A DNA stretch of 64,000 nucleotides, taken from contig JAWKVD010000016.1 of the NCBI GenBank assembly GCA_041398225.1, positions 11,177-75,176 of the forward strand, given 5' to 3'. Below the pieces are notes generated by a model that did not search any database, was not told the origin of the DNA, and saw only the letters and a list, made by a program, of their open reading frames with translations. A program made the translations under genes and the position numbers. This document shows positions 3,001 through 22,338 of the stretch, piece after piece; the stretch's first letter is position 1, and each line of letters opens with the position of its first letter. Source of the stretch: Hyphomonadaceae bacterium. Lineage in GTDB: Bacteria; Pseudomonadota; Alphaproteobacteria; Caulobacterales; Hyphomonadaceae.

Positions 3001-4217
3001 TTGTCCGGCCTTACCCGCTTCCCAAGCCCGAATCTCTCCTAGAGGAGATCGCTGACACCACGCAGCATGAGAACTTTTTTGTGGGATGCTTGGATGTCGT
3101 TACGGCTCTTCGTAAGCTCGGTCGAATTACAGCCGCTGAGGAAGAGCAGGCCACGGCCTATCTCGCCCTTCACGAGAAACCGTGGCCTCACACGCCGATA
3201 GTAAATTCGGGCGCTACGCTCTTCCTTGATGATCTGGCGGCTGCATACTTCCAACACGTCAAACTACTGGATCGGCTGAAGTCTGCGGGATTCAACGTCT
3301 TCATCTCCGACTCATTTGCTAAGCACGGCGACGCCTTGATCAGGCACGACGTAACCAGCGCAGAAGCCAAGAGGCTGGTGGAGGAAATTCGGTCAGCTCT
3401 CGAGGAGGGGCTTTCCTCCGGGAAGGTCCAGTTAATCCCCTTGGGACGTGAGACGGACGACGCCGACGAAAAGCAACTCGCGCACCATCCAACAATGGGA
3501 ATTTTCCGGGCTGATGTGGATGCCATCGTTATCGACGATAGATCGCTGAACCAAAACTCGCACCTGCCCTCCGAGGCCGGGACTAAAGCCACTGCTACGA
3601 CCGTGGACATTCTGGTTTCCATGCGTAGCTCCGGTGTGCTTTCAGCATCGGAGTTGGCTCAGGCGCTTACGGTGCTGCGAGATTCTGGATTCGTATTTGT
3701 TCCGACTCTTCCTGGGCAGCTTCTCGAGCTCGTAAGCACCACCACCGTTGACGGCGGTATGTTGCAAGAGCCTGCGGAACTGAGAGCAATTCGGGAGTCT
3801 ATTCTTCGCATTCGTATGACTGATGCGCTTCAGCATCCCAGCGAGAGCAACTGGATTGACAGTATGCTCCGTGAATTCGTCGACGTTATTCGCGCTCAGT
3901 GGACCGACGAAGTTCCTGACGACGTCGCAAGGGCGCGAAGCAACTGGATGCTGCGACAGTTTGATTTGCGGGGCTGGGCGCATCGCAACGGCCAGGACAA
4001 ACGGAGTCCTCTCGACCGATATCGAGCGCAGGTGGGGATGCTCTTGATGCTGCCGAAATCGTCAGCAGCGGCAAAAAAAAGGTATTGGGAATGGCTTGAT
4101 GACGCTGTTCTTGTCAGGCTCGAAGAGGAGCAACCCGATGAATATCAGAAGCTGATCGACATGCTGGAAGAGGTGATCACCCGGGGAACGGATGAGATGC
4201 CGAAGTTCGAGGATTAG
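1..4217 (+). CDS. Giant multidomain protein, 5'-partial (>=1404 aa in window): tail of an alpha/beta-hydrolase (DUF676/PGAP1/SERAC1-like lipase fold) domain, a long helical/TPR-like repeat region, and a large C-terminal domain of unknown function
   Basis: The track ORF 39..4217 begins at a TTG. The same frame (codons from nt 3: tca aaa tcg gcc cac gat acg aga gct gaa gga ttt) has no stop back to nt 1, so the gene continues upstream of the window. AFLSTPHFGS and VDEDHDSIRSP resemble the 'GTPHxGS' and Asp/His segments of DUF676/PGAP1-type hydrolases (recalled motifs, not searched). No Walker A motif was seen. Stop TAG 4215-4217 abuts the next ATG. Confidence 0.7.
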   Translation, partial: SKSAHDTRAEGFLTRVRRVAFLSTPHFGSDTAALANAISWLTRPRETLTGLSRNDPNLRGLNTWFRRYAEEAKLEACILRETKPMKNGFFIVKPDSADPGLSPATDVIPVDEDHDSIRSPKDRQAEVYRHVLAFVRKPFVRAHPAASRDECLASIATGVSDLQTQQKELVQALALHSSGNGVVTQEAERRLWQIRRSRYINGYDAKAEATRLLNDIQNGELSTAARDTRRKIFAWCARLLAGLDHSVAEGAYKEAQALGAGEENILAEAFLLVFGKADKASALAKVSSIDTKSARTAAFLIAANGVTPEEAVQWLNNANLQSSDLDPDGKLQLLQRRLQMKDWGTALADVLTFGLDDYDAAPGLLTLAGMTHLVQAVPSDFREAITFHLPTDLSDFPLSTDGSSRAYLETAQPLFKNAATSLGQLGLDQASGVAADYALWLDLRNPGSTAQARKELESSLSDPKLRLRRVPMALDFRLKLDRAAVEREIDAETARTGGKSRDAAAARLAMAMSRKDAMETARDIALHRKQLVEYYSPQYIEAVEVEVLARSGQVNEARSKLAAIDVSVMPPETLKTLARVIEEVSGADPTIVREAEYLASKKLIDLIHLVDALKGRNAHAKLAEYGKLLFDETHSLAHAVLYANALYEEGRDRDVIELVEAYPDLLATSSELETIAAWSYYRLGNLAQAKTLLSKLQLSHDLTGDRHLQINIAIASGDWSSLGTIVETEWTRRDTRSAKELLRAGQIAQHIGASGRSQELVRAAAAKANGDPAVLVGCYSMAASGGWEDDAAIHEWLNVAAEASGENGPIQKLNLGQLVKMQPKHRERQEEIWQSLITASLPLFVAAKGLNRTLVDLIVVPALVNQRSEDPRQRGLIFTYSGARPIVPLPGKRLAFDVTSILTLAILGLLRKTIAAQDTVFISHTTLGWLFEERQKLEFHQPSQVREAAETKRLIDSGHLHRFDGTSGSQELEQQFGDDIARYLVAAQAADPSNPNQKLIVRPYPLPKPESLLEEIADTTQHENFFVGCLDVVTALRKLGRITAAEEEQATAYLALHEKPWPHTPIVNSGATLFLDDLAAAYFQHVKLLDRLKSAGFNVFISDSFAKHGDALIRHDVTSAEAKRLVEEIRSALEEGLSSGKVQLIPLGRETDDADEKQLAHHPTMGIFRADVDAIVIDDRSLNQNSHLPSEAGTKATATTVDILVSMRSSGVLSASELAQALTVLRDSGFVFVPTLPGQLLELVSTTTVDGGMLQEPAELRAIRESILRIRMTDALQHPSESNWIDSMLREFVDVIRAQWTDEVPDDVARARSNWMLRQFDLRGWAHRNGQDKRSPLDRYRAQVGMLLMLPKSSAAAKKRYWEWLDDAVLVRLEEEQPDEYQKLIDMLEEVITRGTDEMPKFED

Positions 4218-6176
4218 ATGACGGAAGAGGAAGAGATAGAGCGGGAGGTCGCCCGTAACCTGCTCACGATGTTCCCGCCCTCGATACGTCGTTCAGTTTT
4301 CGGGTCACGCGCATTCCAAGACAAGTATAAATTCGCGTCCGATGCGACGCTCTCGTTCAGCGGCAGTGATATTTCGATCAACCGGTCCGACTTCTTTCCT
4401 GCCGTGCGCGCGCTTTATAGCGGGGGCGCACGAGTGGACCTAAAGACCGCAGATGGGCGAGCGGCACATCTCGAAGTCGAGCCGGACGCTCATGATGGAC
4501 GGCTTCGACTGACGGTCGAAAGCGAATCCGCCTCTCTGCCCTCGTTCTGGTTTTTTTCGCCAGACGCTGATATGCGCCTTCGCGAATTTGACCGAGAGGT
4601 TTCTCAGCGCACTCTACCCGCCTCCATCGTTTCTAATTGGAGAACCCGCTTTGCTGAATCCGCGCTCTCGGATCGCGAAGCGCAGGATCTCCATGAGGTC
4701 TTTGCGGATGACCCGCGAGAGGTCGAAACGGCAATTGGAAACGAACTGCACAAGGAAGAAGCCAATCTCCGTGTGCTCGTTCCACGCTCAATGGAATATT
4801 ACCACCGGCTACTCGGCGACTTTCAAGAATCCACCGGCGTCGACGCGTATCTCAACACAACCGCACCGTCACATTTCAACCATCTTCTCCAGGCGCAGCC
4901 TCATCGCGCGTTGCTGCTCTGTCTTCAGCTGTGCGCCCATCAATCGATGGCGCCGCTGTTGACACTCCCAGAGTGGCCAGCCGCCGAAGTCGAACAGTTC
5001 TTTGAGCAACTTGAAAGTTCAGGCGACCGTTTCTCTCAAGTGGCTGGTTACGAGGTGGGAGTGCGCGCACTTACTCGCTATCCCGGCCTTGAGCCTATCC
5101 TGCTACGCATCGTCAAAGCGCTACGGGACGAGGATGCCCGCGGTAAGAACGGTCGTCTGGCGTTGAGCGCTGGTCTTTTCATTTTCGTCGACGGCGAGTT
5201 GTCCAGGATCAGCCTCTTCAAAGGATACACTCCTTTTATCCGCCGCCTTGCAGCGATCGCCCATGCTGCCGTCATCGAGCGAAAAATGATCGAGCTAGGC
5301 GTTTCGCTCGAAGGCGCTGCTGACTGGGCTATGCAGGGCCGAGGACAAGACTTCTTCATGCAGTCGCTGGCCGATCTTCGAATCGAGCCACGCTGGTTGC
5401 CGGACTTGATGACGGCTGAGCAACTGAAGAACGAGTTCCTGAGCCGCATCCACATCGCGTCGGATCACGCAAAGGAGCAAATCCCGGCAGGCGACTTGCG
5501 CCAGCTAGTTGTCGAGGAAGGCCCTGAGAGCATCAAGGCCCGTCTAGCAATGCCATTTGCGTTTCTACCCGGCCCACTGGAAGGAGGAGCGACGGCACCC
5601 GCACCCTTCCCGCAAGACATGCTCGACGAACTCAAGGAGCCAACGGAGAAGAAGGTACTGGAGGCCCGGTTCTTCGCTGGCGTGGTCAATCTTGCTCTCG
5701 TGTTTCGACTCGAAAAGGACGTAGGGCTCCTAATTGGCGAGATACTGCGCGCGGCGAAGTATCGTCTGAGCGTCGGAGGCGAATCCGGAGTCACGTTCTC
5801 GTTGCTGGCCGGTCTCGCGATCATTGCAGCCGTTACTCGCACCGCCAGCCTGGCCGATGACATCCGTGTTCTGGTGCGCGTCCTCCGAGCCCGAGGAGAT
5901 TTTGATGCTGAGCCTGATAGCCAGCTGCGCATCGGCTTAATCGCAAGCGCTGCACATCAAGACGTACCCGGTTGGTGCAAGGCAGTCGGAGACTGGTTCA
6001 TCGAGCTATCGTACGAACCCATGGATAGAGCGACTGCCCAAGGGTTACGTCATCACTTGCGCAAGCTCTGCCAAGCTGTTCCAGATCTGTGGCCGTACGT
6101 TTCAAAGGCAGACGCAGCATTAGCTGCCGTCGTCGGATCTCATCACGCCAGACCAAGCGAAGCGAGCAAAACATAG
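4218..6176 (+). CDS. Hypothetical 652-aa protein with no recognisable motif; translationally coupled partner of the giant protein
   Basis: ATG 4218 immediately follows the upstream TAG. A GAGGA Shine-Dalgarno sequence lies at 4209-4213, inside the end of the upstream gene. It is a long uninterrupted ORF with plausible amino-acid composition. Confidence 0.65.
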   Translation: MTEEEEIEREVARNLLTMFPPSIRRSVFGSRAFQDKYKFASDATLSFSGSDISINRSDFFPAVRALYSGGARVDLKTADGRAAHLEVEPDAHDGRLRLTVESESASLPSFWFFSPDADMRLREFDREVSQRTLPASIVSNWRTRFAESALSDREAQDLHEVFADDPREVETAIGNELHKEEANLRVLVPRSMEYYHRLLGDFQESTGVDAYLNTTAPSHFNHLLQAQPHRALLLCLQLCAHQSMAPLLTLPEWPAAEVEQFFEQLESSGDRFSQVAGYEVGVRALTRYPGLEPILLRIVKALRDEDARGKNGRLALSAGLFIFVDGELSRISLFKGYTPFIRRLAAIAHAAVIERKMIELGVSLEGAADWAMQGRGQDFFMQSLADLRIEPRWLPDLMTAEQLKNEFLSRIHIASDHAKEQIPAGDLRQLVVEEGPESIKARLAMPFAFLPGPLEGGATAPAPFPQDMLDELKEPTEKKVLEARFFAGVVNLALVFRLEKDVGLLIGEILRAAKYRLSVGGESGVTFSLLAGLAIIAAVTRTASLADDIRVLVRVLRARGDFDAEPDSQLRIGLIASAAHQDVPGWCKAVGDWFIELSYEPMDRATAQGLRHHLRKLCQAVPDLWPYVSKADAALAAVVGSHHARPSEASKT

Positions 6177-7408: not shown

Positions 7409-8989
7409 TTAAGAGCCTCGGAGCAGCGCCTGTTCCTGCTCCTTCCATACCTCCCCCGGCCTTTGGCTGATCAGCGATTGCGCGGTGATCTCCGGCGGCA
7501 GCCTGCCGTCGATGAGCGCCTCGACGATGCGCGGAGAGAGCAGCCCCAAATGGATGCGCTGGGTGAGAAAGGTCGGCTTCACACCTTCTGCGGCGGCAAG
7601 TTGGGTAATCGATGCACCAGCTTTCAGTCGCTCGACCCAACGGGTGGCGCGATGAACCAACTTGACGAGAACGATATCAGGTTCGACCGGCTTGTTCGCG
7701 TCGAGAACGATACGCTGTTCGACGCCGCGACGTCTTTGGGTAAACGACGCCTTGATGGTGAGATCCGCAGGGATCTCGGGGCGCCCGCCGCCAAACGCCT
7801 CGGAGGCGTCCCATTCGATCTGAAGGCATCCGGGAGCGACCTCGACGCGGCGCACGGCGTCGATAACCTGTGCGGCGGACAGCTCGTTCGCGGACCGGAC
7901 ACGCTGTTGAAGCCTCACGACAACCGGATCCGCAACGATCGCGTCCACGATCCGTTCCTCCAATTCCGGCGCCGGCAAGCGCCAGGCGCCCGGATCGTCC
8001 CCCTCCCCGGCGATCAATCGCTGAGAAACATAGTAGCGATAGCGCACGCCCTTTCGCGCCGAATGGGTCGGCAAGAGCTTGTCGCCCGTCTCATCGAACA
8101 GCTTGCCGGCGAGAGGACTGCGCGCCCGGGCGTTGGCGCGGCGACGACGAGCGACGCGCTGCGCCTCGAGCTGACGTTGCACGCCTTCGAACATGTCCGT
8201 CTCAAGGATGGGCTCGTGTAGGCCGTCATACAGTTTGTCGCGATGCCGGATACGGCCGATGTAGATGGGGTTGGACAGAAGGTGATACAGCGCACCGCGC
8301 CGAAAAGGCGCTCCACCCGCCCACGAGCCGCGCTTGCCCTCACGCGCCTTAGAACGCACGCCACGCCGGTTGAGATCTTCCATCACCATTCGGACGGAGC
8401 CCAGTTGCAGATAAAGCGCAAATATCTCCCGGACCGTCTGGGCTTCGCTCGAATTGACGACGAGGCCGCTCTCGGCGACATCGTAACCAAGCGGAGGCAA
8501 ACCGCCCATCCACATGCCCTTGGCCTTGGAGGCGGCGATCTTGTCGCGGATGCGCTCGCCGGTGACCTCGCGCTCGAACTGGGCAAACGACAACAACACA
8601 TTGAGGGTAAGCCGCCCCATGCTGGTGGAGGTGTTGAACTGCTGCGTCACGGAAACAAAGGAGACGTTGCGCGCCTCAAGACGCTCGACCAGCTTGGCGA
8701 AGTCGGCCAGCGATCGGGTCAGCCGATCGATCTTATAGACCACGATGAGATCGACCCGACCCGCATCGATGTCTACGAGCAAGCGATTGAGCGCAGGCCG
8801 TTCCAGCGTACCGCCGGAGAGGCCGCCATCGTCATAGGCGTCGGGCAAGACGCGCCAACCTTCGGACCGCTGGCTGCGCACGAACGCCTCGCATGCCTCA
8901 CGCTGGGCCTGCAGTGAGTTGAACGACTGATCGAGCCCCTCCTCCGAGGACTTGCGGGTGTAGATGGCGCAGCGGACCTGTCTCACCAA
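7409..8989 (-). CDS. Large serine recombinase (resolvase/invertase catalytic domain plus recombinase domain)
   Basis: N-terminus VRQVRCAIYTRKSS...DGGLSGGTLERPALNRLL...LIVVYKIDRLTRSL is the classical serine-recombinase catalytic domain. The 526-aa length is typical of large serine integrases. GTG start at 8989 with GAGGGGG 6 nt upstream. Confidence 0.9.
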   Translation of the reverse strand: MVRQVRCAIYTRKSSEEGLDQSFNSLQAQREACEAFVRSQRSEGWRVLPDAYDDGGLSGGTLERPALNRLLVDIDAGRVDLIVVYKIDRLTRSLADFAKLVERLEARNVSFVSVTQQFNTSTSMGRLTLNVLLSFAQFEREVTGERIRDKIAASKAKGMWMGGLPPLGYDVAESGLVVNSSEAQTVREIFALYLQLGSVRMVMEDLNRRGVRSKAREGKRGSWAGGAPFRRGALYHLLSNPIYIGRIRHRDKLYDGLHEPILETDMFEGVQRQLEAQRVARRRRANARARSPLAGKLFDETGDKLLPTHSARKGVRYRYYVSQRLIAGEGDDPGAWRLPAPELEERIVDAIVADPVVVRLQQRVRSANELSAAQVIDAVRRVEVAPGCLQIEWDASEAFGGGRPEIPADLTIKASFTQRRRGVEQRIVLDANKPVEPDIVLVKLVHRATRWVERLKAGASITQLAAAEGVKPTFLTQRIHLGLLSPRIVEALIDGRLPPEITAQSLISQRPGEVWKEQEQALLRGS

Positions 8990-9011
8990 CGCCCCCTCGC
9001 TGGACGTGCGA

Positions 9012-9404
9012 TCACGGCCGCAACCCGAAGAAACGCGGCCCGGACCATTTAACTCCGGTGATGGCCTCAGCGACGGCGCTCAACGAACGATAGCGCTGGC
9101 CGCGCCATTCGAAACCGCCGGCTACGACGTCAACGATATGCTGAACGCCGTTCCATTCACGCACCAGCTGGGCGCCGGACGCAACTGACCGAACGGCCTT
9201 TCCGGCCGCATGCTGCTCCAGACGCCGACGGAGCGCGGGCGTAAGCCCGCCCTCCGCCTGCGCCTGTCGTTCATAGGCGATCAGCTGGCGCATTAAGTGC
9301 TGACCGGTCTTGGCTGGCGGAGGCGCGCCGAACCGGCGCGCCCATTCAGCGACAAGGTCTTCCCGCGTCGCGCGCGTCAGATCAGAGAGGTCAGCCGCGC
9401 TCAT
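9012..9404 (-). CDS. DUF2924-family protein (typical companion of large serine recombinases)
   Basis: Internal ATG (MSAADLSDL...) of track ORF 9012..9548. The C-terminus LVREWNGVQHIVDVVAGGFEWRGQRYRSLSAVAEAITGVKWSGPRFFGL matches the recalled DUF2924 signature. The start overlaps the upstream gene's stop (ATGA, 9401-9404). Confidence 0.75.
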   Translation of the reverse strand: MSAADLSDLTRATREDLVAEWARRFGAPPPAKTGQHLMRQLIAYERQAQAEGGLTPALRRRLEQHAAGKAVRSVASGAQLVREWNGVQHIVDVVAGGFEWRGQRYRSLSAVAEAITGVKWSGPRFFGLRP

Positions 9405-9658
9405 TGCCGGGCGCGACGTTTGCGACCGGCCGTTTCCGGCTTGAACCGGTAGATGGAGGGCTCGCCCGGCTCTCCGGCGATACGCTCGATGGGAACGCCC
9501 CGCTTGCGCAGGCCAGTGAGCGCCGCCCGCACCGAATGTGGGAGCCACCCCATGGCTGCGGCCAGCGTTTCGACGCTGGCGCCCTCACCTTTGAGATGTT
9601 CGAGGAATTCCGCTTGTCGCGTGCCGGCCTTGACTGCAGTGATGGGTATGGACGTCAT
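9401..9658 (-). CDS. DUF3489-family small protein (winged-helix-like)
   Basis: Internal ATG (MTSIPITAVK...) of track ORF 9401..9703. TRQAEFLEHLKGEGASVETLAAAMGWLPHSVRAALTGLRKRG matches the recalled DUF3489 pattern. Confidence 0.7.
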   Translation of the reverse strand: MTSIPITAVKAGTRQAEFLEHLKGEGASVETLAAAMGWLPHSVRAALTGLRKRGVPIERIAGEPGEPSIYRFKPETAGRKRRARQ

Positions 9659-15427: not shown

Positions 15428-16003
15428 CTATGGCGCCACCCCAAGCTTCAGCAACGTCGCCGTGTCCATATAACCGGTCTGTGGCAATGCGTGGTCTGCT
15501 TGATAAGCGCGCAAGGCCGCTTGCGTCTTTGTATTCAGCACGCCCGTCATCGGCCCAGGATCATAGCCTTTCGCATAGAGCGCCAACTGCACCATCTTGA
15601 TCTTCTCAGCTAGCTCGGTGGTGGTAAGCGCTCGCCCGCTGTTTGACGGCGTCCTTGGCGTGAGTAACGGCTGAGCTGGCGATGTGGAGGGCGCCGGTGG
15701 CGGTGGCGGTGGCGGCGGGGAGTACGCTGGCGCAGTATAGCTACCCCCAGATCCAGAATAGTGTGAGCTATGCGACCTATGACTGGAGTGACTTCTGTGG
15801 CTGGAGTGACTTCGGTGTTGAGCAAGCTGTAAAAGCGCCCCTCGGCTACGAGGATCGCTGAACACCGAAAGATCCTCCGTGTGATCCGAACCGGCGAGCC
15901 CTAGATCGTTGCTCGGCGCCGCCAACGCCTCCGGCGTCACTGCGAGTAAACTCGCACTGGTCGTCAGCCCGAATAGACTCGTAAGTCGTTCACGCCACCC
16001 CAT
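15428..16003 (-). CDS. hxsA: His-Xaa-Ser repeat protein (HxsA-like): signal peptide, (H-x-S)x6, poly-Pro linker, C-terminal peptidoglycan-binding (PG_binding_1-like) domain
   Basis: Start ATG at 16003 with GGAGGAGG 9 nt upstream (internal start of track ORF 15428..16090). Contains HRSHSSHRSHSSHRSHSSH, then SPPPPPPPPAP, then MVQLALYAKGYDPGPMTGVLNTKTQAALRAYQADHALPQTGYMDTATLLKLG. Overlaps the hxsC stop by 14 nt. Confidence 0.75.
   Translation of the reverse strand: MGWRERLTSLFGLTTSASLLAVTPEALAAPSNDLGLAGSDHTEDLSVFSDPRSRGALLQLAQHRSHSSHRSHSSHRSHSSHYSGSGGSYTAPAYSPPPPPPPPAPSTSPAQPLLTPRTPSNSGRALTTTELAEKIKMVQLALYAKGYDPGPMTGVLNTKTQAALRAYQADHALPQTGYMDTATLLKLGVAP
15761..15817 (-). repeat. Coding tandem repeat: 19 codons, H-R-S-H-S-S x3 plus H
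   Basis: The minus strand reads CAC CGA AGT CAC TCC AGC / CAC AGA AGT CAC TCC AGT / CAT AGG TCG CAT AGC TCA / CAC. The three 18-nt units use different synonymous codons. Confidence 0.9.
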
Positions 16004-17192
16004 ATCGAGATACCTCCTCCCCCTTAGAGCTTCCCGATCCGGTGATCGGTGCAATCGCACGGCTTCTCCACTGAGGCCCCGCCGACGCAAAGAAACCGGA
16101 GCAAGCGTCCCTTACCGAACACGTCCGGCATTGCGGCGCATCTCGATTTTTCCAGTCTGAAATTGACGCTCGAGCAAAGGGCCAAAGATCTGATCGCAAG
16201 ACACAAAGCGGCAAGTTGTAGATAGAGACGCTCATGCCACGCAGCGCCAGATGATGGACCGCATCACAGAGCGGCGCCTGATAGTCAGCAGGATCAATCC
16301 AAAGTCGGTCCCGATTCATCTTGGCGAAGCCCATTGGCTCCAATCCCATGAACGCCACATGCTCCACAAAAGGCATCCTACGGTAGATGTAGGACGCGAG
16401 CTGCGGAAGCCGCGGTATGCTCAATGCGTGCAACACGATGCGTATCTCCACGCGAGCGCGACGCTTGGCTAGCTCGTAGAGACCCGACATAGTCTCGCCA
16501 AACGCCCCAACGCCGCCAACAATCTCATCGTGAAGCGCTGCAATATCTGCGTAGATTGGGACCGCCCAGACCGCTTGATCTCCAGCGGAAGCGCATAGCA
16601 TGTCCGCCAACCCCGCGTCCGAGAACAAACGACCGTTGGTAAGAGTATGAAGAAGCGTGTTCGGCAGTCGTTGACGGGCATGATCGATCAGATATGCGAG
16701 ATCTTCACGAAGCAGCGTCGGCTCTCCACCCGTAATGCCGAGCTGCGGCTCGTCTACGTCAACGAGATCAATGAGTGCATGAAGTTCATCCAACCGCCAT
16801 CGGTCACTTTCATTCCGCGGCGGTTGCGAGCACATCAAACACAACGAATTACATTGTTCCGTGACAAACAAGGCGTTGGCGTTACTCCCTCTCCGATAAA
16901 GTACAGATACGAGCGTACTGCCGGGACGCAGCCGGACCACATCGCCAGGCCGAACGACATCAGGATGTCTCAGGTCATCTATCCGGACAGCCGCGGCGCC
17001 CTCAGTCGCCCGCATCTGCTCCTTCAATGTGGGAGAGTCGTCACTCCCCTTCAGGACTAGCACATTGCATGAATCATAGCGGTCAGCCTTTGCCTCGTCA
17101 GGGGCAAGAACTTTAAAGACCCGCACACGATCAACACCGGTGACAGCTGCGTGCGTATAAAGGGCGGGCGCCGACCTCAATGTTCGACCCAT
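15990..17192 (-). CDS. hxsC: Radical SAM enzyme, HxsC-like (second maturase of the His-Xaa-Ser system)
   Basis: CNSLCLMCSQP is a CX3CX2C motif and LGITGGEPTL a SAM-binding GGE motif. No obvious SPASM tail. The start overlaps the hxsB stop by 16 nt. The B versus C assignment is from memory of family descriptions. Confidence 0.7.
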   Translation of the reverse strand: MGRTLRSAPALYTHAAVTGVDRVRVFKVLAPDEAKADRYDSCNVLVLKGSDDSPTLKEQMRATEGAAAVRIDDLRHPDVVRPGDVVRLRPGSTLVSVLYRRGSNANALFVTEQCNSLCLMCSQPPRNESDRWRLDELHALIDLVDVDEPQLGITGGEPTLLREDLAYLIDHARQRLPNTLLHTLTNGRLFSDAGLADMLCASAGDQAVWAVPIYADIAALHDEIVGGVGAFGETMSGLYELAKRRARVEIRIVLHALSIPRLPQLASYIYRRMPFVEHVAFMGLEPMGFAKMNRDRLWIDPADYQAPLCDAVHHLALRGMSVSIYNLPLCVLRSDLWPFARASISDWKNRDAPQCRTCSVRDACSGFFASAGPQWRSRAIAPITGSGSSKGEEVSRYGVA

Positions 17193-18613
17193 CCAGGTCC
17201 AACATCCCCACGGTCACGCTGAAACACCCACCCGAGCAGTGTCTTCATTGTGTCTGGATCGCGTTCAGCGATCCGCCCAAACAGAAGTTGAAACTGCGCC
17301 ATGTGGCGACCACAAAAATCGGTACCTTCGCGCCCAACATCCGGTTCGCCCTGAACAATCGCGTGGTGAACCGGATCGGCGCCACAGTAAGGTACAAACG
17401 CGCAATCCCGACACCCATTCTGCCGCTCAGCGATAGCGCCTTTGGCCAACCACATCATCGCATCTGACGAAAGCATCTTATCGAGCGGCTGACTCACATC
17501 CCCCAGACGAAACCTTGCGTCGCCTGTCTCTGCCGCCATACGCGCCTCGTCCGACGGATAGACCCCGCCGTCATAGTTGTAGACGAGAACCCCAAGCCCA
17601 GCGCCCGCAGGCGAACGCAGATCCATATAGCCAGAATGGAACGGCGTCAGTATGTGGCGCAACATGATGGTCGCCGTAGTTTCCTCTATCCGGACGCCAG
17701 CCTCATTCAAGCGAAGAACATAATTCAGCGCTCGCTCATAAAACGTCATGAACTCGTCCACCGAGTATCCCAGCGACGCGCGCGTCTTGCGGGCAAACCC
17801 ATAGGGCGCAAGCGGTCTCAGAAAGATTGAGCCGAAGCCGGCCTCGACATAAGCGTCCACCACGTCCTCTGGCCGTGATAGAGCGGCCCGCGTGATTGTC
17901 GGAAGCGCCGCTACGCCGTGCTCTCCAAGAACCGCACGTGCGCGGCTGAGGGCTTCGATTGTGCTTTTCCAACTGTTGGATTTCGGAAGCACCCTCTGTG
18001 AAGCGTGAATGTCTTCCGGACCATCCAACGAGGTCGACAGATGCATCCGATGATCGCGGCAGAATTCCAGATCAGCCTGCGCCAACAAATGAAGCGTAGT
18101 CGCCATCGTGAACTGAACGACGCGATCTTCCTTTTCCGCGCGTAGTTCGGCCTCTTGCACAATCTCTCGCACCAAATCGAAGCGCAGTGCCGGTCCGCCC
18201 CCCTGAAACTCAATTGTCAGGGTCGAAGCATCGCTTTCAAAGACGCGATCAAGCGCCAGCATCGCATTCGCACGCGTCATGTCCTTGCCGGTTGCGTTCA
18301 ACGCCGCTCGCGAGACCTGACAGTATTGGCATGAATGATCACACCGCAAAGTGACCACGAATATGTGGAGCGAAGGGCCTTCGGTCAGGAACCCCTTGCG
18401 GGTTCGTTTAACGATGGCCGAAAGACCGTCCGTGGGGCCATGCCGCGATATAAGCCCACGCGCCTCGATATCGGCATATCTGGGATCGGACATCGCGAGA
18501 CGCCCCTCCTCCAGCGCGACATGAACCGCTTCCGGCACAATAACATACTCGCCGAGATCATTGGTGATCAGCACCGACCCAGGAATATGGACCAATGAGA
18601 TGGAACGCCTCAT
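17177..18613 (-). CDS. hxsB: Radical SAM/SPASM-like enzyme, HxsB-like
   Basis: Internal ATG (MRRSISLVHIPG...) of track ORF 17177..18775, preceded by GAGGGAA. CDHSCQYCQV is a CX3CX2C motif. The C-terminal Cys-rich segment is NGCRDCAFVPYCGADP...DFCGRH. The upstream 54 codons of the track ORF look like non-coding read-through. Confidence 0.75.
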   Translation of the reverse strand: MRRSISLVHIPGSVLITNDLGEYVIVPEAVHVALEEGRLAMSDPRYADIEARGLISRHGPTDGLSAIVKRTRKGFLTEGPSLHIFVVTLRCDHSCQYCQVSRAALNATGKDMTRANAMLALDRVFESDASTLTIEFQGGGPALRFDLVREIVQEAELRAEKEDRVVQFTMATTLHLLAQADLEFCRDHRMHLSTSLDGPEDIHASQRVLPKSNSWKSTIEALSRARAVLGEHGVAALPTITRAALSRPEDVVDAYVEAGFGSIFLRPLAPYGFARKTRASLGYSVDEFMTFYERALNYVLRLNEAGVRIEETTATIMLRHILTPFHSGYMDLRSPAGAGLGVLVYNYDGGVYPSDEARMAAETGDARFRLGDVSQPLDKMLSSDAMMWLAKGAIAERQNGCRDCAFVPYCGADPVHHAIVQGEPDVGREGTDFCGRHMAQFQLLFGRIAERDPDTMKTLLGWVFQRDRGDVGPGWVEH

Positions 18614-18813
18614 ATACCGGCATTCCCTCAGAGTCTTTTCACGGCTTGAAACTGCATGCGCCCCCCCGTTCCCAGAGGCGTACATTGATACAAATGGCTC
18701 ACAAGGTCCAGATTTCCGTATCGGAAGCTGTCTCGTATCCCAAGGGATGCGGTCTCCGATCAAGCGCATACCCACCTTCTATCGACGTCAATCCCCAATG
18801 CGAAAATGACGAA

Positions 18814-18900
18814 CAAGGCCGCGGCGACAGAAACGAACCAGTTCAGGTTCAGACACTCGCCGCGGCACGATCGATTGGACGATTCAATATGCGCATTGTC
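18814..18900 (-). mobile_element. About 90-bp remnant of an IS3-family (rve integrase C-terminal) transposase gene
   Basis: The minus-strand frame reads DNAHIESSNRSCRGECLNLNWFVSVAAA. This resembles the conserved ...QNAxIESFNxxxRxECLNxxWF... block of DDE/rve transposases. No flanking transposase sequence remains. Confidence 0.45.
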
Positions 18901-19172
18901 AGCATGTCGGAAGCGCGCTTCACCTCCACCAACACAGGCACGCCGTTGTCGTCCAGAAACAGATGGTCGAGCGACCAACGCCCCCCGCCGCTCAGCTCGT
19001 CAGGCACTGGGGCTTCGCGCCGAACCAGCAGAAGCTTCTCAGCGCCATCATGGGCCAAGACCTTGGGATGGTCCGCGATCAACCGCTGAAGCAAATCCTT
19101 GGTCGCATACTCCGTACGCGGAATCTCCGTGAAAGTACCGTCCTTGCCCACGACAAACACTGTTGAGGTCAC
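18849..19172 (-). pseudogene. N-terminal fragment of a PD-(D/E)xK (RecB/NucS-like) nuclease-fold protein, truncated at the IS scar
   Basis: GTG at 19172 follows GGAG. VTSTVFVVGKDGTFTEI...RWSLDHLFLDDNGVPVLVEVKRASD carries a D...EVK nuclease-like motif, then runs into unrelated sequence and a stop. The upstream 155 codons of track ORF 18849..19640 are antisense to the neighbouring gene. Confidence 0.4.
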
Positions 19173-19195: not shown

Positions 19196-20221
19196 CTATC
19201 CGAGAACGGCCTCGATGCGCCCGGCACTGGCGGGCAGCTTTGCGAGGCTCGCTTCGATCCTGCTCCGCCATTTCGGTCCGCGGCTGACGGCGTCCTCGTA
19301 GGCGTCTCGCAGCTCGTCCGGGCGTAGGTCCGTCAGAACCGCGATAAGGAAGTCGGCCTGCGCCCGGTCCTTGCGAGCTTTCATGACATCCGATCCGCCC
19401 TGCCGCGGCTCGGCGACGATGAGCTTGTGAATGGCGTAACGCTCGGGACGCGGGATGCTCACCAACACGCCCGACCGGTAGAGCGACACCGCCTGTATGG
19501 GGTCCTCCAGCAAGTAGCCAAGGTGACGCAATGCCTGCGCGCTGACGCCAAGCGCAGGGAGATCCCGCACGCCCTCCTTGCCTTCCGCCGGCATCAGGAA
19601 TTCCACCAGCGCTTCGCTGTTGCTCTGCGCCCACCGCCACGTCTTGCGATTGCCAAGCGACGGCACGGGGGCGAACTTAAGCTCGGCGAACACATCAGCT
19701 AACGGGGTCTCCACCACATCTCCGATGGCGAAGGACAAACGCTCGAAGCTGGCGATGTCGAGATCGTTCGTCTGCGCCAGCTGGTCGAACCCCAACGCTA
19801 CGCCCAGTTCTCCCTCGTAGTGTCGGAAGGCGACGGTACCCACGAGCGTACCGCCCAGCCGGAATACGCCAGCGTTGGAGAAGGCGGACAAGAGACTCCC
19901 GGTTTTCTGGTCGACCGACGCATAGCCCTCCGCCCGAAGCACGCGGACCAGACGGGTGCGCTCTTTGCGGCGCGCCTCGCGCTCCGCCTTCAGCTGATCA
20001 AGCTTCTGCAAGCGTTCGCGCAGGTCGGGCGTGTCGGGGCCGATATAGCGCTGGGCCATTTCATTGCCGACGCGGTACTTGTCATACCAAAATGATCGCC
20101 CCCTGACGGTCACTTTAGTCGGTGCGCCGCGAATGTTGGGGGCCTGATCGTCCTGCAGCATGCGCCGCAGGTCGTGGTAGGCCGAAGTCCCGACCTGGCT
20201 GTGGTATCGAATGCCGCTCAT
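19196..20221 (-). CDS. Nucleotidyltransferase-fold protein of the GSU2403 type (AbiEii/MNT-like superfamily)
   Basis: VTVRGRSFWYDKYRVGNEMAQRYIGPDTP... and SNAGVFRLGGTLVGTVAFRHYEGELGV match my recollection of the GSU2403-family signature. ATG 20221 is preferred over the TTG at 20236 used by the track. Confidence 0.55.
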   Translation of the reverse strand: MSGIRYHSQVGTSAYHDLRRMLQDDQAPNIRGAPTKVTVRGRSFWYDKYRVGNEMAQRYIGPDTPDLRERLQKLDQLKAEREARRKERTRLVRVLRAEGYASVDQKTGSLLSAFSNAGVFRLGGTLVGTVAFRHYEGELGVALGFDQLAQTNDLDIASFERLSFAIGDVVETPLADVFAELKFAPVPSLGNRKTWRWAQSNSEALVEFLMPAEGKEGVRDLPALGVSAQALRHLGYLLEDPIQAVSLYRSGVLVSIPRPERYAIHKLIVAEPRQGGSDVMKARKDRAQADFLIAVLTDLRPDELRDAYEDAVSRGPKWRSRIEASLAKLPASAGRIEAVLG

Positions 20222-20229
20222 ATCGCTAT

Positions 20230-20254
20230 ACAGCAAAAATATCTTTTGCTGTAC
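20230..20254. promoter_or_regulatory. Perfect 10-5-10 palindrome TACAGCAAAA-ATATC-TTTTGCTGTA
   Basis: Read directly from the sequence. It lies 9-33 nt upstream of the ATG at 20221, in an AT-rich patch, with a TTGTAC hexamer just upstream on the minus strand. Confidence 0.4.
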
Positions 20255-20469
20255 AATAGCTCAGTAGCCTGCCCCACCGAGGTGGTCCGGCGTGAAGCTA
20301 GACACGGCATCCTGCCGGCCCTGCGGTGTCTTGCGCTGTGTCGATCGGTGCTGGCCCACGCGGGCCAAGCCGCGCACTCCGAAACGCCCAGCTACTTCAC
20401 CACGGGGTCGATACATGCACCAATACGATGTGCGGACAATGGGTTACGGGATCAGCGGTGCCGTCGCTT

Positions 20470-21120
20470 CTATCTTGCTTTCGCGCTTTCCAGCGCTGCC
20501 TCTAAGAACCCCCTTGCCGATCCGGCCTGCACTGCTTTTGCAAGGCCGCAACCGAAGGCACGCATGGCCTCCTCCCATTCGGGCATCGGCGCCAACTTCG
20601 GTAGCGGGCAGTGCTGCATCCGTTCGCAGCAATCGAGGGCGTCGGTGTCGCGGCCAAGCCAAGCATAGAGGATCGCGAGCATCGCCATACTATTAGCGGT
20701 GTCGGGCATCGAGGCTGCCTCAGCCTCACACAATGCCAGCACCTCGACAAAGTCTAACGGCTTGCGGATATCGGGCCGGAACTGTTCCTCCATCGCAGCC
20801 AGCGTGTCGGCAAACTTACGATCGTGCCAACGATGTTCGATCTCGCGGTGCTTCACGTCCAGGACCTGAGGCAACATCCGAACATGCGCCTCGGGCAATA
20901 CCAACGAACTCATTCCATGCGTGGGCCGATAGGCAGCGGAACTCATTTTTTGGAACCAGATCATCTGCTGGATCGGACCAGAACGACGTACAAATGCAGT
21001 CCCATCAACAAAAATTGCCCACTCAGGGAAGCTCGCGGCATACTCCGAGACGACAGCTTTAAGCTGCGTTTTGGTCATCGAAGTGTATTTTTTGAGCAAG
21101 GTCGCTCGCTTGTCATTCAT
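20470..21120 (-). CDS. Hypothetical protein (216 aa)
   Basis: Long ORF with balanced composition and an ATG start. No motif recognised. Confidence 0.5.
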   Translation of the reverse strand: MNDKRATLLKKYTSMTKTQLKAVVSEYAASFPEWAIFVDGTAFVRRSGPIQQMIWFQKMSSAAYRPTHGMSSLVLPEAHVRMLPQVLDVKHREIEHRWHDRKFADTLAAMEEQFRPDIRKPLDFVEVLALCEAEAASMPDTANSMAMLAILYAWLGRDTDALDCCERMQHCPLPKLAPMPEWEEAMRAFGCGLAKAVQAGSARGFLEAALESAKAR

Positions 21121-21199: not shown

Positions 21200-22017
21200 T
21201 CATAGCTCAGGTTTTCTCAGTTCGCGAGCGCGCGGGATGCCGCTTAGGGCTGAGTGGGGTCGCACATGGTTGTAGTCGTGGCGCCATACGGCCAGCGCCT
21301 TGCGGGCGTGGCCAAGGCCGTCGAACACCTCCTCGTTCAAGAATTCATCCCTCAGCCGGGCATTGAAGCTTTCGCTGAAGCCGTTCTGCTGCGGCTTACC
21401 CGGCGTGATGTAATGCCAGCCGACACCACTTTCGTTCCACCATTCGAGGATAGCGTGACTGGCCAGCTCCGTCCCATTGTCGCTGACCACCAGGTCCGGC
21501 TTGCCGTAGAGCCGGATCACGGCGTCCAGCTCTCGCGCCACCCGATAGCCGGAGAGGGAGGTGTCGGCCACCAACACCAGGCACTCCCTGGTGTAGTCGT
21601 CGATCACCGCAAGGATGCGCAACCGACGACTGATCCCGAACGTGTCGACGAGGAAGTCGAGGCTCCAGCGCTTCGTCGGACCGACCGGTAGAGCCATCGA
21701 CTCGCGAGTCCCCGTCGCCCGCTTGCGGCCCCTTCGTCGTTTCACGGCCAGCCCATCCTCGCGGTGAGGCGCCTCAGCTTCTTGTGGTTCATGACGATGC
21801 CATCCCGTTCGAGCATCAGGCCGATGCGGCGATAACCAAAGTGCCGGCGCTCGCTCGCCACTTTCTTCATACGCGCGCGGATCTCCGGATTGCCCGGCTC
21901 CGGCTCGCGTCTCACTGTCTTGGGATCGACGCTGACCCGTCGGCAGGCGCGACGTTGGGAGATGTCGTGCCTGGCCATCGCCTTCAACGCCGCATCCCGC
22001 TTCCGCTGGGGCATCAT
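21200..22017 (-). pseudogene. IS407-like orfB (DDE/rve transposase) split by a frameshift
   Basis: Track ORFs 21742..22017 (...[26 protein letters not shown]) and 21200..21745 (KRRRGRKRA...DDYTRECL...SDNGTELAS...[23 protein letters not shown]) are consecutive parts of one transposase in different frames. The shift is near 21745-21765. Confidence 0.8.
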
Positions 22018-22279
22018 CAGCTCTTTCCCAGGAGGTCTTTCAGGACGGTGTCGTCCAGCATCGCGTCCGCTAGCGTCCGCTTCAGTCGCCCGTTCTCGAT
22101 CTCGAGCAGCTTCAGCTTGCGGGCGTCAGTGATGTCCCGACCGCCATATTTGCTTTGAATTTGTAGAAAGTCGCCGTGCTCAGCCCGTGCTTGCGACAGA
22201 CGTCCGCTGTCGGCACGCCGCACTCCTGCTCGGCCAGGATCGCGATGATCTGTCCTTCGGCAAATCGGCTCTCCCGCAT
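22017..22279 (-). pseudogene. IS407-like orfA (HTH transposase subunit) with a 1-nt frameshift
   Basis: From ATG 22279 the frame reads [43 protein letters not shown], then shifts at GCAAATATGGCGG (about 22150-22165). The C-terminal ...[43 protein letters not shown] is in the other frame (track ORF 22017..22307). Confidence 0.75.
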
Positions 22280-22338
22280 GTCCGTCTCCAGGTGACGGAC
22301 TCTCCATTCAAACGAGGGACCATGCGGGGCTCAGGTCA

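What the first reader, a model, noticed from the sequence alone, without database searches (positions are those of the whole stretch)
15428..18613. His-Xaa-Ser radical-SAM system (hxsB-hxsC-hxsA) as a compact, translationally coupled three-gene cassette without hxsD
Seen in the sequence:
- Three minus-strand genes overlap: 16 nt at 17177-17192 and 14 nt at 15990-16003, with GGAGGAGG upstream of the third.
- Two carry CX3CX2C radical-SAM motifs (CDHSCQYC and CNSLCLMC). The larger one has an extra C-terminal Cys cluster (SPASM-like).
- The third encodes an exported protein containing HRSHSSHRSHSSHRSHSSH.

Known: this matches the in-silico-defined His-Xaa-Ser system (TIGRFAMs families HxsA, B, C and D, recalled from memory). 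To my knowledge it has no published chemistry, product or phenotype.

Unusual here:
- I find no candidate for the fourth component (HxsD; I recall a LLNDYxLRE-type motif) anywhere in the window.
- The cassette is bounded upstream by an IS scar. Downstream lie an XRE regulator and a lipoprotein, so it looks like a mobile cargo unit.

Inference: two radical-SAM enzymes modify His/Ser-repeat residues of an exported protein. A three-gene version would show that HxsD is dispensable, or this copy is inactive.
Basis: partly seen in the sequence, partly recalled or inferred. Interest (0 to 1): 0.75.

Follow-up and report, generated by a model that had tools for sequence, protein, structure and literature searches.

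The report
HXS phage-defence cassette lacking hxsD
This is a three-gene version (hxsB-hxsC-hxsA) of the recently characterised HXS anti-phage system, from a sizeable bacterial lineage that has kept the system under selection without the small HxsD protein that the E. coli system needs.

Summary
Three overlapping minus-strand genes encode HxsB (18613-17177), HxsC (17192-15990) and HxsA (16003-15428, seven HxS repeats plus a peptidoglycan-binding domain). No hxsD is detectable in the 64 kb window.

Two parts of the interpretation need correcting:
- The system is no longer uncharacterised. Li et al., Nat Commun 2026 (PMC13128918) show that HXS is a broad anti-phage system. HxsB, HxsC and HxsD mature HxsA into a periplasmic effector that blocks phage DNA entry. 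All four genes are essential in E. coli.
- The missing hxsD is not a local accident of the IS scar. All 28 other non-redundant loci nearest to this one also lack hxsD and any conserved fourth gene. They come from Hyphomonadaceae, Caulobacteraceae, Maricaulaceae, Roseomonas, one Mesorhizobium, Ferrovibrio, Limisphaerales and alphaproteobacterial MAGs. By contrast, 53 of 54 more distant loci carry hxsD directly upstream of hxsB, and the remaining one is cut by a contig end.

In the D-less lineage all three genes are intact, translationally coupled and under purifying selection (dN/dS 0.08-0.22). HxsD is not fused into B, C or A.

Verdict: a probably functional HxsD-independent variant of a known defence system, carried in a mobile or defence island. 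Caveats: an unlinked hxsD cannot be excluded, and this copy's HxsB has a unique E140G change in the GGEP motif.

The parts
17177..18613 (-). hxsB, a radical SAM maturase with a SPASM-like C-terminal domain (478 aa)
   Evidence: TIGR03978 scores 518.5 bits against a cutoff of 370. The protein is 100% identical to NCBI 'HxsB [Hyphomonadaceae bacterium]' P0001. All seven Cys conserved across the 80 aligned HxsB sequences are present (C91, 95, 98, 401, 404, 410, 434).
18320..18343 (-). HxsB CX3CX2C radical-SAM cluster motif (CDHSCQYC)
18191..18202 (-). HxsB GGGP, in place of the GGEP SAM-binding motif (E140G)
   Evidence: Glu in 79 of 80 aligned HxsB. Gly occurs only in this window.
17384..17413 (-). 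HxsB auxiliary-cluster motif CX2CX5C (CRDCAFVPYC)
15990..17192 (-). hxsC, a radical SAM maturase (400 aa from ATG 17192, or 396 aa from TTG 17180)
   Evidence: TIGR03977 scores 372.4 bits against a cutoff of 267.9. It overlaps hxsB by 16 nt from the ATG, or by 4 nt from the alternative TTG.
16830..16853 (-). HxsC CX3CX2C motif (CNSLCLMC)
16101..16130 (-). HxsC auxiliary-cluster motif CX2CX5C (CRTCSVRDAC)
15428..16003 (-). hxsA, the HxS-repeat effector precursor (191 aa): N-terminal signal-like segment, HxS repeats, Pro-rich linker, PG_binding_1 domain
   Evidence: TIGR03979 scores 117.7 bits against a cutoff of 121.65. PG_binding_1 has E 6.7e-13. It overlaps hxsC by 14 nt.
15755..15817 (-). 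Seven tandem His-Xaa-Ser units (HRSHSSHRSHSSHRSHSSHYS)
15446..15607 (-). Peptidoglycan-binding domain of HxsA
   Evidence: Pfam PF01471 covers residues 162-215 of the 220-aa ORF form.
16013..16020 (-). Shine-Dalgarno-like GGAGGAGG, 9 nt before the hxsA ATG
18769..18888 (-). IS3-family transposase C-terminal fragment (IS scar). It lies about 150 nt upstream of hxsB and is context, not part of the system.
   Evidence: rve_3 E 1.5e-4. transpos_IS3 profile positions 311-341 of 369.

Best explanation
The cassette is a three-component member of the HXS (His-Xaa-Ser) anti-phage family. It belongs to a lineage that works without HxsD.

By homology with the E. coli system, the mechanism would be as follows.
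- The cytoplasmic radical-SAM enzymes HxsB and HxsC covalently modify and process the HxsA precursor at its HxS repeat region.
- Mature HxsA is exported.
- HxsA is anchored to the cell wall by its C-terminal peptidoglycan-binding domain.
- HxsA interferes with entry of phage DNA through the periplasm.

Shown here:
- family identity of HxsB and HxsC;
- the HxsA architecture;
- intact catalytic and auxiliary Cys motifs;
- translational coupling;
- absence of hxsD here and in every close relative examined;
- purifying selection on all three genes in the D-less lineage;
- location in a mobile or defence island.

Inferred, not shown:
- that the D-less version still confers phage resistance;
- that HxsB and HxsC alone suffice for maturation;
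- that this particular copy is expressed and active.
For: Family scores: HxsB 518.5 of 370, HxsC 372.4 of 267.9, HxsA 117.7 of 121.65.

Published function of HXS (PMC13128918):
- It restricted 110 of 113 coliphages.
- All four genes are needed.
- HxsC and HxsD form a complex.
- A +8 Da modification was mapped to the SHRSS motif.
- Periplasmic HxsA binds DNA.

Lineage evidence:
- In 80 species-level genome loci, 53 carry hxsD directly upstream of hxsB.
- None of the loci with 48% or more HxsB identity to the window do so, even at E up to 50.
- The PGAP-annotated Roseomonas mucosa plasmid shows hxsB, hxsC and a 'peptidoglycan-binding protein', with no hxsD.
- Only B, C and A are conserved among 27 D-less loci.
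- There is no size increase or fusion. HxsC is 376-403 aa in D-less loci and 390-412 aa in D+ loci.
- The HxsD profile has no similarity to the HxsC N-terminal domain (hhalign probability below 0.5%).
- dN/dS is 0.08-0.22 for B, C and A in five D-less pairs with unsaturated dS.
- All conserved Cys are present, and 199 of 203 highly conserved columns are retained in the window's HxsB and HxsC. That is not an outlier.
- The HxS core (AQHRSHSSHRSHSSH.YSGSGG) is nearly identical in D-less and D+ HxsA.
- The 120 best HxsB relatives in the 5.8-billion-protein collection are all 55% or more identical. In the genome set, that range is exclusively D-less.

Context: PIN-TPR-GreABC genes, a serine recombinase, a ParB-like DNA methylase and IS3 elements. 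The related locus L004 has the same recombinase module next to hxsBCA.
Against: - HxsD is essential in the only system tested, E. coli.
- That system is only about 33% identical in HxsB and HxsC to this one, judged from the Klebsiella plasmid homologue. Transfer of function therefore spans a large distance.
- Only 64 kb of this genome, and 2.2-6 kb on each side of the cassette at the other loci, could be scanned. An unlinked hxsD is not excluded.
- Very divergent HxsD can escape the HMM. An Agrobacterium pAt1 ORF in the canonical position scores only E 0.074.
- This copy's HxsB has Gly instead of the otherwise invariant Glu of GGEP, the only such case among 80 sequences.
- An IS fragment sits about 150 nt upstream. 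No sigma-70-like promoter was found there, although the scan is not suited to alphaproteobacteria.
- HxsA is just below the curated HMM cutoff.
Confidence: 0.65

Rival explanations
1. Decayed remnant. A canonical hxsDBCA operon lost hxsD, and perhaps its promoter, through IS3 insertion and deletion. The remaining three genes are inactive.
For: An IS3 fragment lies exactly where hxsD would sit. It is fused to a truncated nuclease-like ORF. HxsD is essential in E. coli. HxsB carries the unique E140G change in GGEP.
Against: Every close relative lacks hxsD regardless of what lies upstream: a response regulator, RHS genes, or a recombinase ending 97 nt before hxsB. All three ORFs are intact and the window's count of mismatches at conserved columns is typical. 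The lineage is under purifying selection.
Confidence: 0.1
2. HxsD, or a non-homologous analogue, is encoded elsewhere in these genomes and acts in trans. The system would then still be four-component.
For: Only partial genomes were searched. [quoted passage not shown] Divergent HxsD can be nearly invisible to HMMs.
Against: - In all 53 D+ loci hxsD is immediately upstream of hxsB.
- No fourth gene is conserved in the 2.2-6 kb held on each side of the cassette at 27 D-less loci.
- None of the named hits among the 120 listed (of 166 at E 0.001 or better) in an HxsD profile search of 5.8 billion proteins comes from Caulobacterales or Hyphomonadaceae. They are Xanthomonadales or Lysobacterales, plus Faunimonas.
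- The HxsC N-terminal domain is relatively more alike between the two D-less clades (0.39 identity, core 0.52) than between D-less and D+ groups (0.23-0.33, core 0.51-0.56). This fits a changed partner requirement.
Confidence: 0.15
3. The D-less lineage has a role other than phage defence, for example a modified His-rich periplasmic protein for metal binding or cell-envelope function.
For: His-rich repeats can bind metals. No alphaproteobacterial HXS has been tested. Some Caulobacteraceae HxsA carry an extra TonB_C domain.
Against: HxsA has the same architecture and a near-identical HxS core to the proven defence effector family. The loci sit in variable, mobile, defence-type neighbourhoods rather than conserved metabolic operons.
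Confidence: 0.1

Closest known systems
HXS anti-phage system of E. coli and Klebsiella (hxsD-hxsB-hxsC-hxsA; Li et al., Nat Commun 2026, PMC13128918)
   Same: It has two paired radical-SAM enzymes with CX3CX2C plus auxiliary Cys clusters. HxsA has an N-terminal signal-like segment, tandem HxS repeats and a PG_binding_1 domain. The order is B-C-A with overlapping genes. It is carried on mobile DNA.
   Different: There is no hxsD, which is essential there. HxsB and HxsC are only about 33% identical to the Klebsiella plasmid proteins. It has seven rather than five HxS units. The host is an alphaproteobacterium (a Hyphomonadaceae MAG). Function is untested.
Four-gene HXS loci of Pseudomonas, Xanthomonadales and Hyphomicrobiales (Microvirga, Faunimonas)
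   Same: HxsB is 45-51% identical. The HxsC N-terminal domain is homologous (hhalign 99.7-99.9%). The HxS core is near-identical.
   Different: These loci carry hxsD (TIGR03976, 54-68 bits) ending about 80 nt before hxsB. The window's lineage does not.
Variant His-Xaa-Ser families in NCBIfam (HxsA2 NF038296, HxsA3 NF038309, HxsA4 NF038313, HxsC4 NF038332, HxsD-like NF038315)
   Same: They share the short HxS repeat region, seen as weak hits of 21-23 bits to HxsA2, A3 and A4.
   Different: All scores are far below those families' cutoffs. The HxsC4 score is 38.9 against a cutoff of 500. The window's proteins belong with the canonical HxsA, HxsB and HxsC models.
SCIFF thioether maturase CteB (PDB 5WGG) and other rSAM/SPASM peptide maturases
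   Same: CteB is the closest solved structure to HxsB (E 2.2e-10, residues 49-410). It shares the radical-SAM core and a C-terminal auxiliary-cluster domain.
   Different: The similarity is only distant. Scores to PapB, anSME, SCIFF and QhpD maturase models are 63-99 bits against cutoffs of 340-453. The substrate is a 191-aa exported protein, not a short peptide.

Membership tests
HXS (His-Xaa-Ser) system | HxsB equivalog (TIGR03978) at or above the curated cutoff | tested here: met
   518.5 bits against 370
HXS (His-Xaa-Ser) system | HxsC equivalog (TIGR03977) at or above the curated cutoff | tested here: met
   372.4 bits against 267.9
HXS (His-Xaa-Ser) system | HxsA equivalog (TIGR03979) at or above the curated cutoff | tested here: not met
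   117.7 bits against 121.65. D-less-lineage HxsA proteins score 110-142 bits, whereas a Pseudomonas HxsA scores 247.5.
HXS (His-Xaa-Ser) system | HxsA architecture: tandem HxS repeats plus a peptidoglycan-binding domain and an N-terminal export signal | tested here: met
   Seven HxS units. PG_binding_1 E 6.7e-13. The N-terminus MGWRER plus a hydrophobic stretch plus ALA|AP was read from the sequence. Its hydrophobicity is modest and no signal-peptide predictor was run.
HXS (His-Xaa-Ser) system | HxsD (TIGR03976) encoded with the operon, normally directly upstream of hxsB | tested here: not met
   No hit in the window with a validated HxsD HMM (best E 49). No TIGR03976 or NF038315 hit in the 75 ORFs around the cassette.
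HXS (His-Xaa-Ser) system | Gene order B-C-A with adjacent or overlapping genes | tested here: met
   Overlaps of 16 nt (or 4 nt) and 14 nt
HXS (His-Xaa-Ser) system | Radical-SAM CX3CX2C and second-cluster Cys motifs in both enzymes (mutationally required in E. coli) | tested here: met
   All conserved Cys are present. However, the HxsB GGEP motif reads GGGP.
HXS (His-Xaa-Ser) system | rSAM-dependent N-terminal processing and +8 Da modification of HxsA, periplasmic localisation, and a block of phage DNA entry | not testable with these tools
   These are experimental properties reported in PMC13128918.
Other rSAM/SPASM peptide maturases (anSME, PapB, SCIFF/CteB, PqqE-like) | Score at or above the family cutoff, and better than the Hxs models | tested here: not met
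   Best non-Hxs hits: PapB 98.8 of 340, QhpD maturase 78.1 of 453, anSME 63.4 of 349

The most novel reading that the evidence does not exclude
A deep, widespread lineage of HXS systems matures its HxS-repeat effector with HxsB and HxsC alone. It occurs in Caulobacterales and Hyphomonadaceae, with outliers in Acetobacteraceae, Maricaulaceae and Verrucomicrobiota.

On this reading HxsD is a lineage-specific accessory rather than a core catalytic component, and its loss is accompanied by changes in the HxsC N-terminal domain. This would be a natural minimal three-gene module for reconstituting the still-unknown +8 Da radical chemistry.

The published HxsA-based census would have under-counted the lineage, because its HxsA proteins hover at the family HMM cutoff.
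Probability: 0.55. Interest if true: 0.55.

Novelty: new variant of a known kind. Interest (0 to 1): 0.45.

Why it matters
HXS is described by its authors as the first defence system shown to block phage DNA ejection. Its chemistry (a +8 Da change in an HxS repeat) and the role of HxsD are unresolved, and in vitro reconstitution has failed (PMC13128918).

A lineage that keeps hxsB, hxsC and hxsA under purifying selection without hxsD has three uses:
- It gives a natural test of what HxsD is for.
- It points to the HxsC N-terminal domain as the place to look for the compensating change.
- It offers a simpler system to reconstitute.

It also shows that HxsA-seeded censuses, which reported four genes in more than 99.8% of systems, miss a large environmental branch. 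PGAP can label its HxsA only as 'peptidoglycan-binding protein'.

For this window alone the result is mostly a correct annotation: a known defence-system family in a mobile island.

Tried and rejected
- Regex for LLNDYxLRE-type motifs. It found nothing in the window, and nothing in the 80 related loci either. The motif is too strict (Pseudomonas has LNDFALRD), so I replaced it with an iterated HMM.
- Look-up of the window's HxsB in the gene-position index: not on record. An identical NCBI protein does exist.
- HxsD absorbed into HxsC or HxsB: rejected. Protein lengths are alike in D-less and D+ loci, and hhalign of HxsD against the HxsC N-terminal domain gives a probability below 0.5%. In-frame upstream extensions and small upstream ORFs (window 54 aa, L001 67 aa, L003 69 aa) have no HxsD or HxsD-like hit.
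- A conserved non-homologous fourth gene: none found in an all-against-all BLAST of flanks from 27 D-less loci.
- The Pfam copy lacks the HxsD model PF27806, since genuine HxsD sequences give no hit. The Pfam scan of local ORFs therefore says nothing about HxsD.
- AlphaFold model of HxsD (pLDDT 90.9; beta-alpha-beta-beta plus a long helix). Foldseek against the PDB gave no match at E 0.001 or better (best 0.15). The fold gave no mechanistic lead, and it is not an RRE-like winged helix.
- DNA searches with the scar region against plasmids, and with a Pseudomonas-type operon against E. coli genomes: no match.
- Rfam and tRNA scans of the window: nothing.
- The sigma-70 promoter scan was uninformative.
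- PADLOC 2023 has no HXS models. It gave only weak viperin-like hits to the radical-SAM cores.
- dN/dS between the window and its nearest relatives could not be used because dS is saturated.


Full report
**1. What is in the sequence**

On the minus strand there are three tightly packed genes.
- hxsB runs from ATG 18613 to TGA 17177 (478 aa). The reading frame stays open upstream to a GTG at 18775. However, every homologue, and an identical NCBI protein from a 'Hyphomonadaceae bacterium' MAG (P0001), start at 18613.
- hxsC runs from ATG 17192 to TGA 15990 (400 aa).
- hxsA runs from ATG 16003 to TAG 15428 (191 aa).
GGAGGAGG sits 9 nt before the hxsA ATG.
- hxsC could alternatively start at TTG 17180, which gives the 4-nt overlap seen in almost all relatives.

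The motifs are confirmed.
- HxsB carries CDHSCQYC and a C-terminal CRDCAFVPYC…C.
- HxsC carries CNSLCLMC and also a C-terminal CRTCSVRDAC. Both enzymes therefore have second-cluster motifs, not only the larger one.
- HxsA has seven consecutive HxS units (15755-15817). This is the only such run in six frames of the window.
- HxsA also has a PG_binding_1 domain (E 6.7e-13).

**2. Family assignment**

- NCBIfam gives HxsB 518.5 bits (cutoff 370) and HxsC 372.4 bits (cutoff 267.9).
- HxsA scores 117.7 bits, just below its cutoff of 121.65.
- Other radical-SAM maturase families score far below their cutoffs (PapB 98.8 of 340, anSME 63.4 of 349).
- The closest solved structure to HxsB is the SCIFF maturase CteB (5WGG, E 2.2e-10). 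HxsC has only a weak match to BlsE.

**3. The system is no longer uncharacterised**

A full-text search found Li et al., Nat Commun 2026 (PMC13128918).
- HXS restricted 110 of 113 coliphages without abortive infection or loss of adsorption.
- It blocks phage DNA entry.
- All four genes are required.
- HxsC and HxsD form a complex.
- HxsA is N-terminally processed, carries a +8 Da modification mapped to an SHRSS motif in the repeat region, reaches the periplasm and binds DNA.

**4. Is hxsD really absent?**

The literal LLNDYxLRE motif is not a valid test. It found nothing even in canonical Pseudomonas loci, where HxsD reads LNDFALRD. I used three other tests.
- I built an HxsD HMM iteratively from ORFs immediately upstream of hxsB in related loci. 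Representatives validate as TIGR03976 (68, 60.9 and 54.3 bits against a cutoff of 50). The HMM also detects the distant enterobacterial HxsD (E 1.5e-5).
- Against all six frames of the 64-kb window, the best hit has E = 49, which is noise.
- NCBIfam TIGR03976 and the HxsD-like model NF038315 hit none of the 75 stop-to-stop ORFs of 45 aa or more between 14.8 and 20.3 kb.

**5. The missing hxsD is a lineage trait, not a local deletion**

A scan of one genome per species returned 80 hxsB loci.
- Fifty-three have hxsD directly upstream of hxsB. These are all the Pseudomonas and other gammaproteobacterial, Xanthomonadales, Microvirga and Faunimonas loci. One further locus is cut by a contig end.
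- None of the loci with 48% or more HxsB identity to the window has hxsD within the 2.2-6 kb held upstream or the flank held downstream. These come from Hyphomonadaceae, Vitreimonas, Caulobacter, Brevundimonas, Asticcacaulis, Phenylobacterium, a Mesorhizobium, Ferrovibrio, Maricaulaceae, a Limisphaerales MAG and four alphaproteobacterial MAGs.
- A PGAP-annotated Roseomonas mucosa plasmid shows the same layout: hxsB, hxsC and a 'peptidoglycan-binding protein', with no hxsD.
- What lies upstream differs from locus to locus: a response regulator, RHS genes, or a serine recombinase ending 97 nt before hxsB.
- An all-against-all comparison of the flanks of 27 D-less loci finds only B, C and A conserved.
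- HxsD has not been fused into a neighbour. Protein lengths match those of D+ systems. The HxsD profile shows no similarity to the HxsC N-terminal domain, and that domain is itself homologous between D-less and D+ systems.
- A neighbour-joining tree of HxsB plus HxsC places the D-less loci in two clades. One is the Caulobacterales and Hyphomonadaceae clade, which contains the window and is sister to D+ Hyphomicrobiales. The other is a smaller mixed clade. The tree is crude, so one loss or two cannot be decided.

**6. Is the D-less version functional?**

- In five D-less pairs with unsaturated dS, dN/dS is 0.08-0.22 for all three genes.
- All ORFs are intact and coupled.
- The window's HxsB and HxsC retain all conserved Cys and 199 of 203 columns that are 95% or more conserved. 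That is typical for non-Pseudomonas members.
- The HxS core and its flanks (…LQLAQHRSHSSHRSHSSH.YSGSGG) are nearly the same as in D+ HxsA.
- The 120 best HxsB relatives in the 5.8-billion-protein collection are all 55% or more identical. In the genome set that range is exclusively D-less, so the lineage is common in environmental data.
- The HxsC N-terminal domain is relatively more alike between the two D-less clades than between D-less and D+ groups, although the catalytic cores are equidistant. This is a suggestive correlate of the lost partner. The paper shows that HxsD binds HxsC.

**7. Why the published census would miss this lineage**

D-less-lineage HxsA proteins score 110-142 bits against a cutoff of 121.65, while a Pseudomonas HxsA scores 247.5. 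PGAP calls the Roseomonas one merely 'peptidoglycan-binding protein'. A census seeded on HxsA, and dominated by Klebsiella and E. coli genomes, will therefore under-count this branch.

**8. Context**

- An IS3 transposase C-terminal fragment (18769-18888) lies about 150 nt upstream of hxsB. It is fused to the N-terminal part of a PD-(D/E)xK-like ORF.
- Further upstream lie an NTP_transf_8 gene and an IS3 copy (21200-22307).
- Downstream are a convergent XRE gene and a lipoprotein-like ORF.
- Beyond those lies a module of ParB-like DNA methylase, DUF5681, DUF2924 and a large serine recombinase. A two-gene PIN-TPR-GreABC system follows at 39-6176.
- The related locus L004 has the same recombinase module next to hxsBCA.
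- From 22.6 kb onward the window holds ordinary chromosomal genes, such as TonB-dependent receptors, esterases and a PQQ dehydrogenase, and the G+C content is higher.

**9. Caveats for this copy**

- HxsB has Gly where 79 of 80 homologues have the Glu of the GGEP SAM-binding motif. From my own knowledge, some radical-SAM enzymes such as HemN naturally have GGG at this position. The change is therefore not necessarily inactivating, but it should be tested.
- The IS scar may have displaced the native promoter. The simple promoter scan is uninformative.
- An unlinked or highly divergent HxsD cannot be excluded. An Agrobacterium plasmid ORF in the canonical position scores only E 0.074 with my HMM. 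However, no ORF of that size and position exists in the D-less loci.
- An HxsD profile search of the large protein collection returned, among named hits, only Xanthomonadales or Lysobacterales and Faunimonas. No Caulobacterales appeared.

**10. Verdict**

The cassette is a member of a D-less lineage of the now-characterised HXS anti-phage family, a new variant of a known kind. The most likely mechanism has three steps:
- HxsB- and HxsC-dependent maturation of HxsA;
- export and wall anchoring of HxsA;
- interference with phage DNA entry.

Only the first step's components are shown here. Activity without HxsD is inferred from conservation.

Noticed in passing
window 39-6176 (+): Two large ORFs (1392 and 652 aa) match Pfam HTH_upst_double_PIN plus PIN-TPR-GreABC, and Permuted_GreAB-C. 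This is a predicted conflict system sitting next to a large serine recombinase (7409-8989).
   Followed up: partly
window 18191-18202 (-), HxsB residues 138-141: HxsB reads GGGP where 79 of 80 aligned HxsB have GGEP. This is a unique E140G change in the SAM-binding GGE motif, one G-to-A or A-to-G transition.
   Followed up: partly
L010, L012, L015-L019, L021, L022, L024 (hxsA at about 8560-9600): In several Brevundimonas, Caulobacter and Phenylobacterium D-less loci, and one unclassified alphaproteobacterial MAG (L015), HxsA is 313-352 aa. In L018 the extra C-terminal region matches TonB_C (PF03544, E 3e-10); the one other long HxsA scanned (L010) gave no TonB_C hit.
   Followed up: partly
window 18905-19172 (-): This is the N-terminal part of a PD-(D/E)xK-like protein (…DHLFLDDNGVPVLVEVKRASD). 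It is cut off and fused in frame to the IS3 fragment. Pfam, NCBIfam and PADLOC give no hit.
   Followed up: partly
window 19196-21120 (-): An NTP_transf_8 nucleotidyltransferase (PF12281, E 5.8e-62) is preceded by a 216-aa ORF with no family hit. This is possibly a two-gene module between the IS scar and the IS3 copy at 21200-22307.
   Followed up: no
L086 (Roseomonas mucosa plasmid p2-HV1) 4842-8274: This PGAP-annotated D-less locus sits on a plasmid. Its HxsA is named only 'peptidoglycan-binding protein', which shows how annotation and HxsA-based censuses miss this lineage.
   Followed up: yes
L088 (Agrobacterium tumefaciens pAt1) 3679-3978: An unlisted ORF of about 100 aa overlaps the hxsB start and has a degenerate HxsD-like C-terminal helix (…FQFCLYRQKIFEQTLPLRKIL…). 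It scores only E 0.074 with the HxsD HMM, so very divergent HxsD forms exist in Rhizobiaceae plasmid HXS loci.
   Followed up: partly
L087 (Klebsiella pneumoniae plasmid) 3723-3962: The canonical hxsDBCA operon sits on a conjugative IncF plasmid. Its hxsD is annotated as only 79 aa and directly abuts (overlaps by 8 nt) an IS1 transposase gene, so it may be 5'-truncated by the insertion. HxsB-like genes occur on 470 plasmids, 322 of them from Klebsiella.
   Followed up: no
HxsD model m116d10707bda (Faunimonas HxsD, P0129): HxsD is confidently predicted (pLDDT 90.9) as beta-alpha-beta-beta followed by a 40-residue helix. It has no significant match in the PDB (best Foldseek E 0.15).
   Followed up: yes
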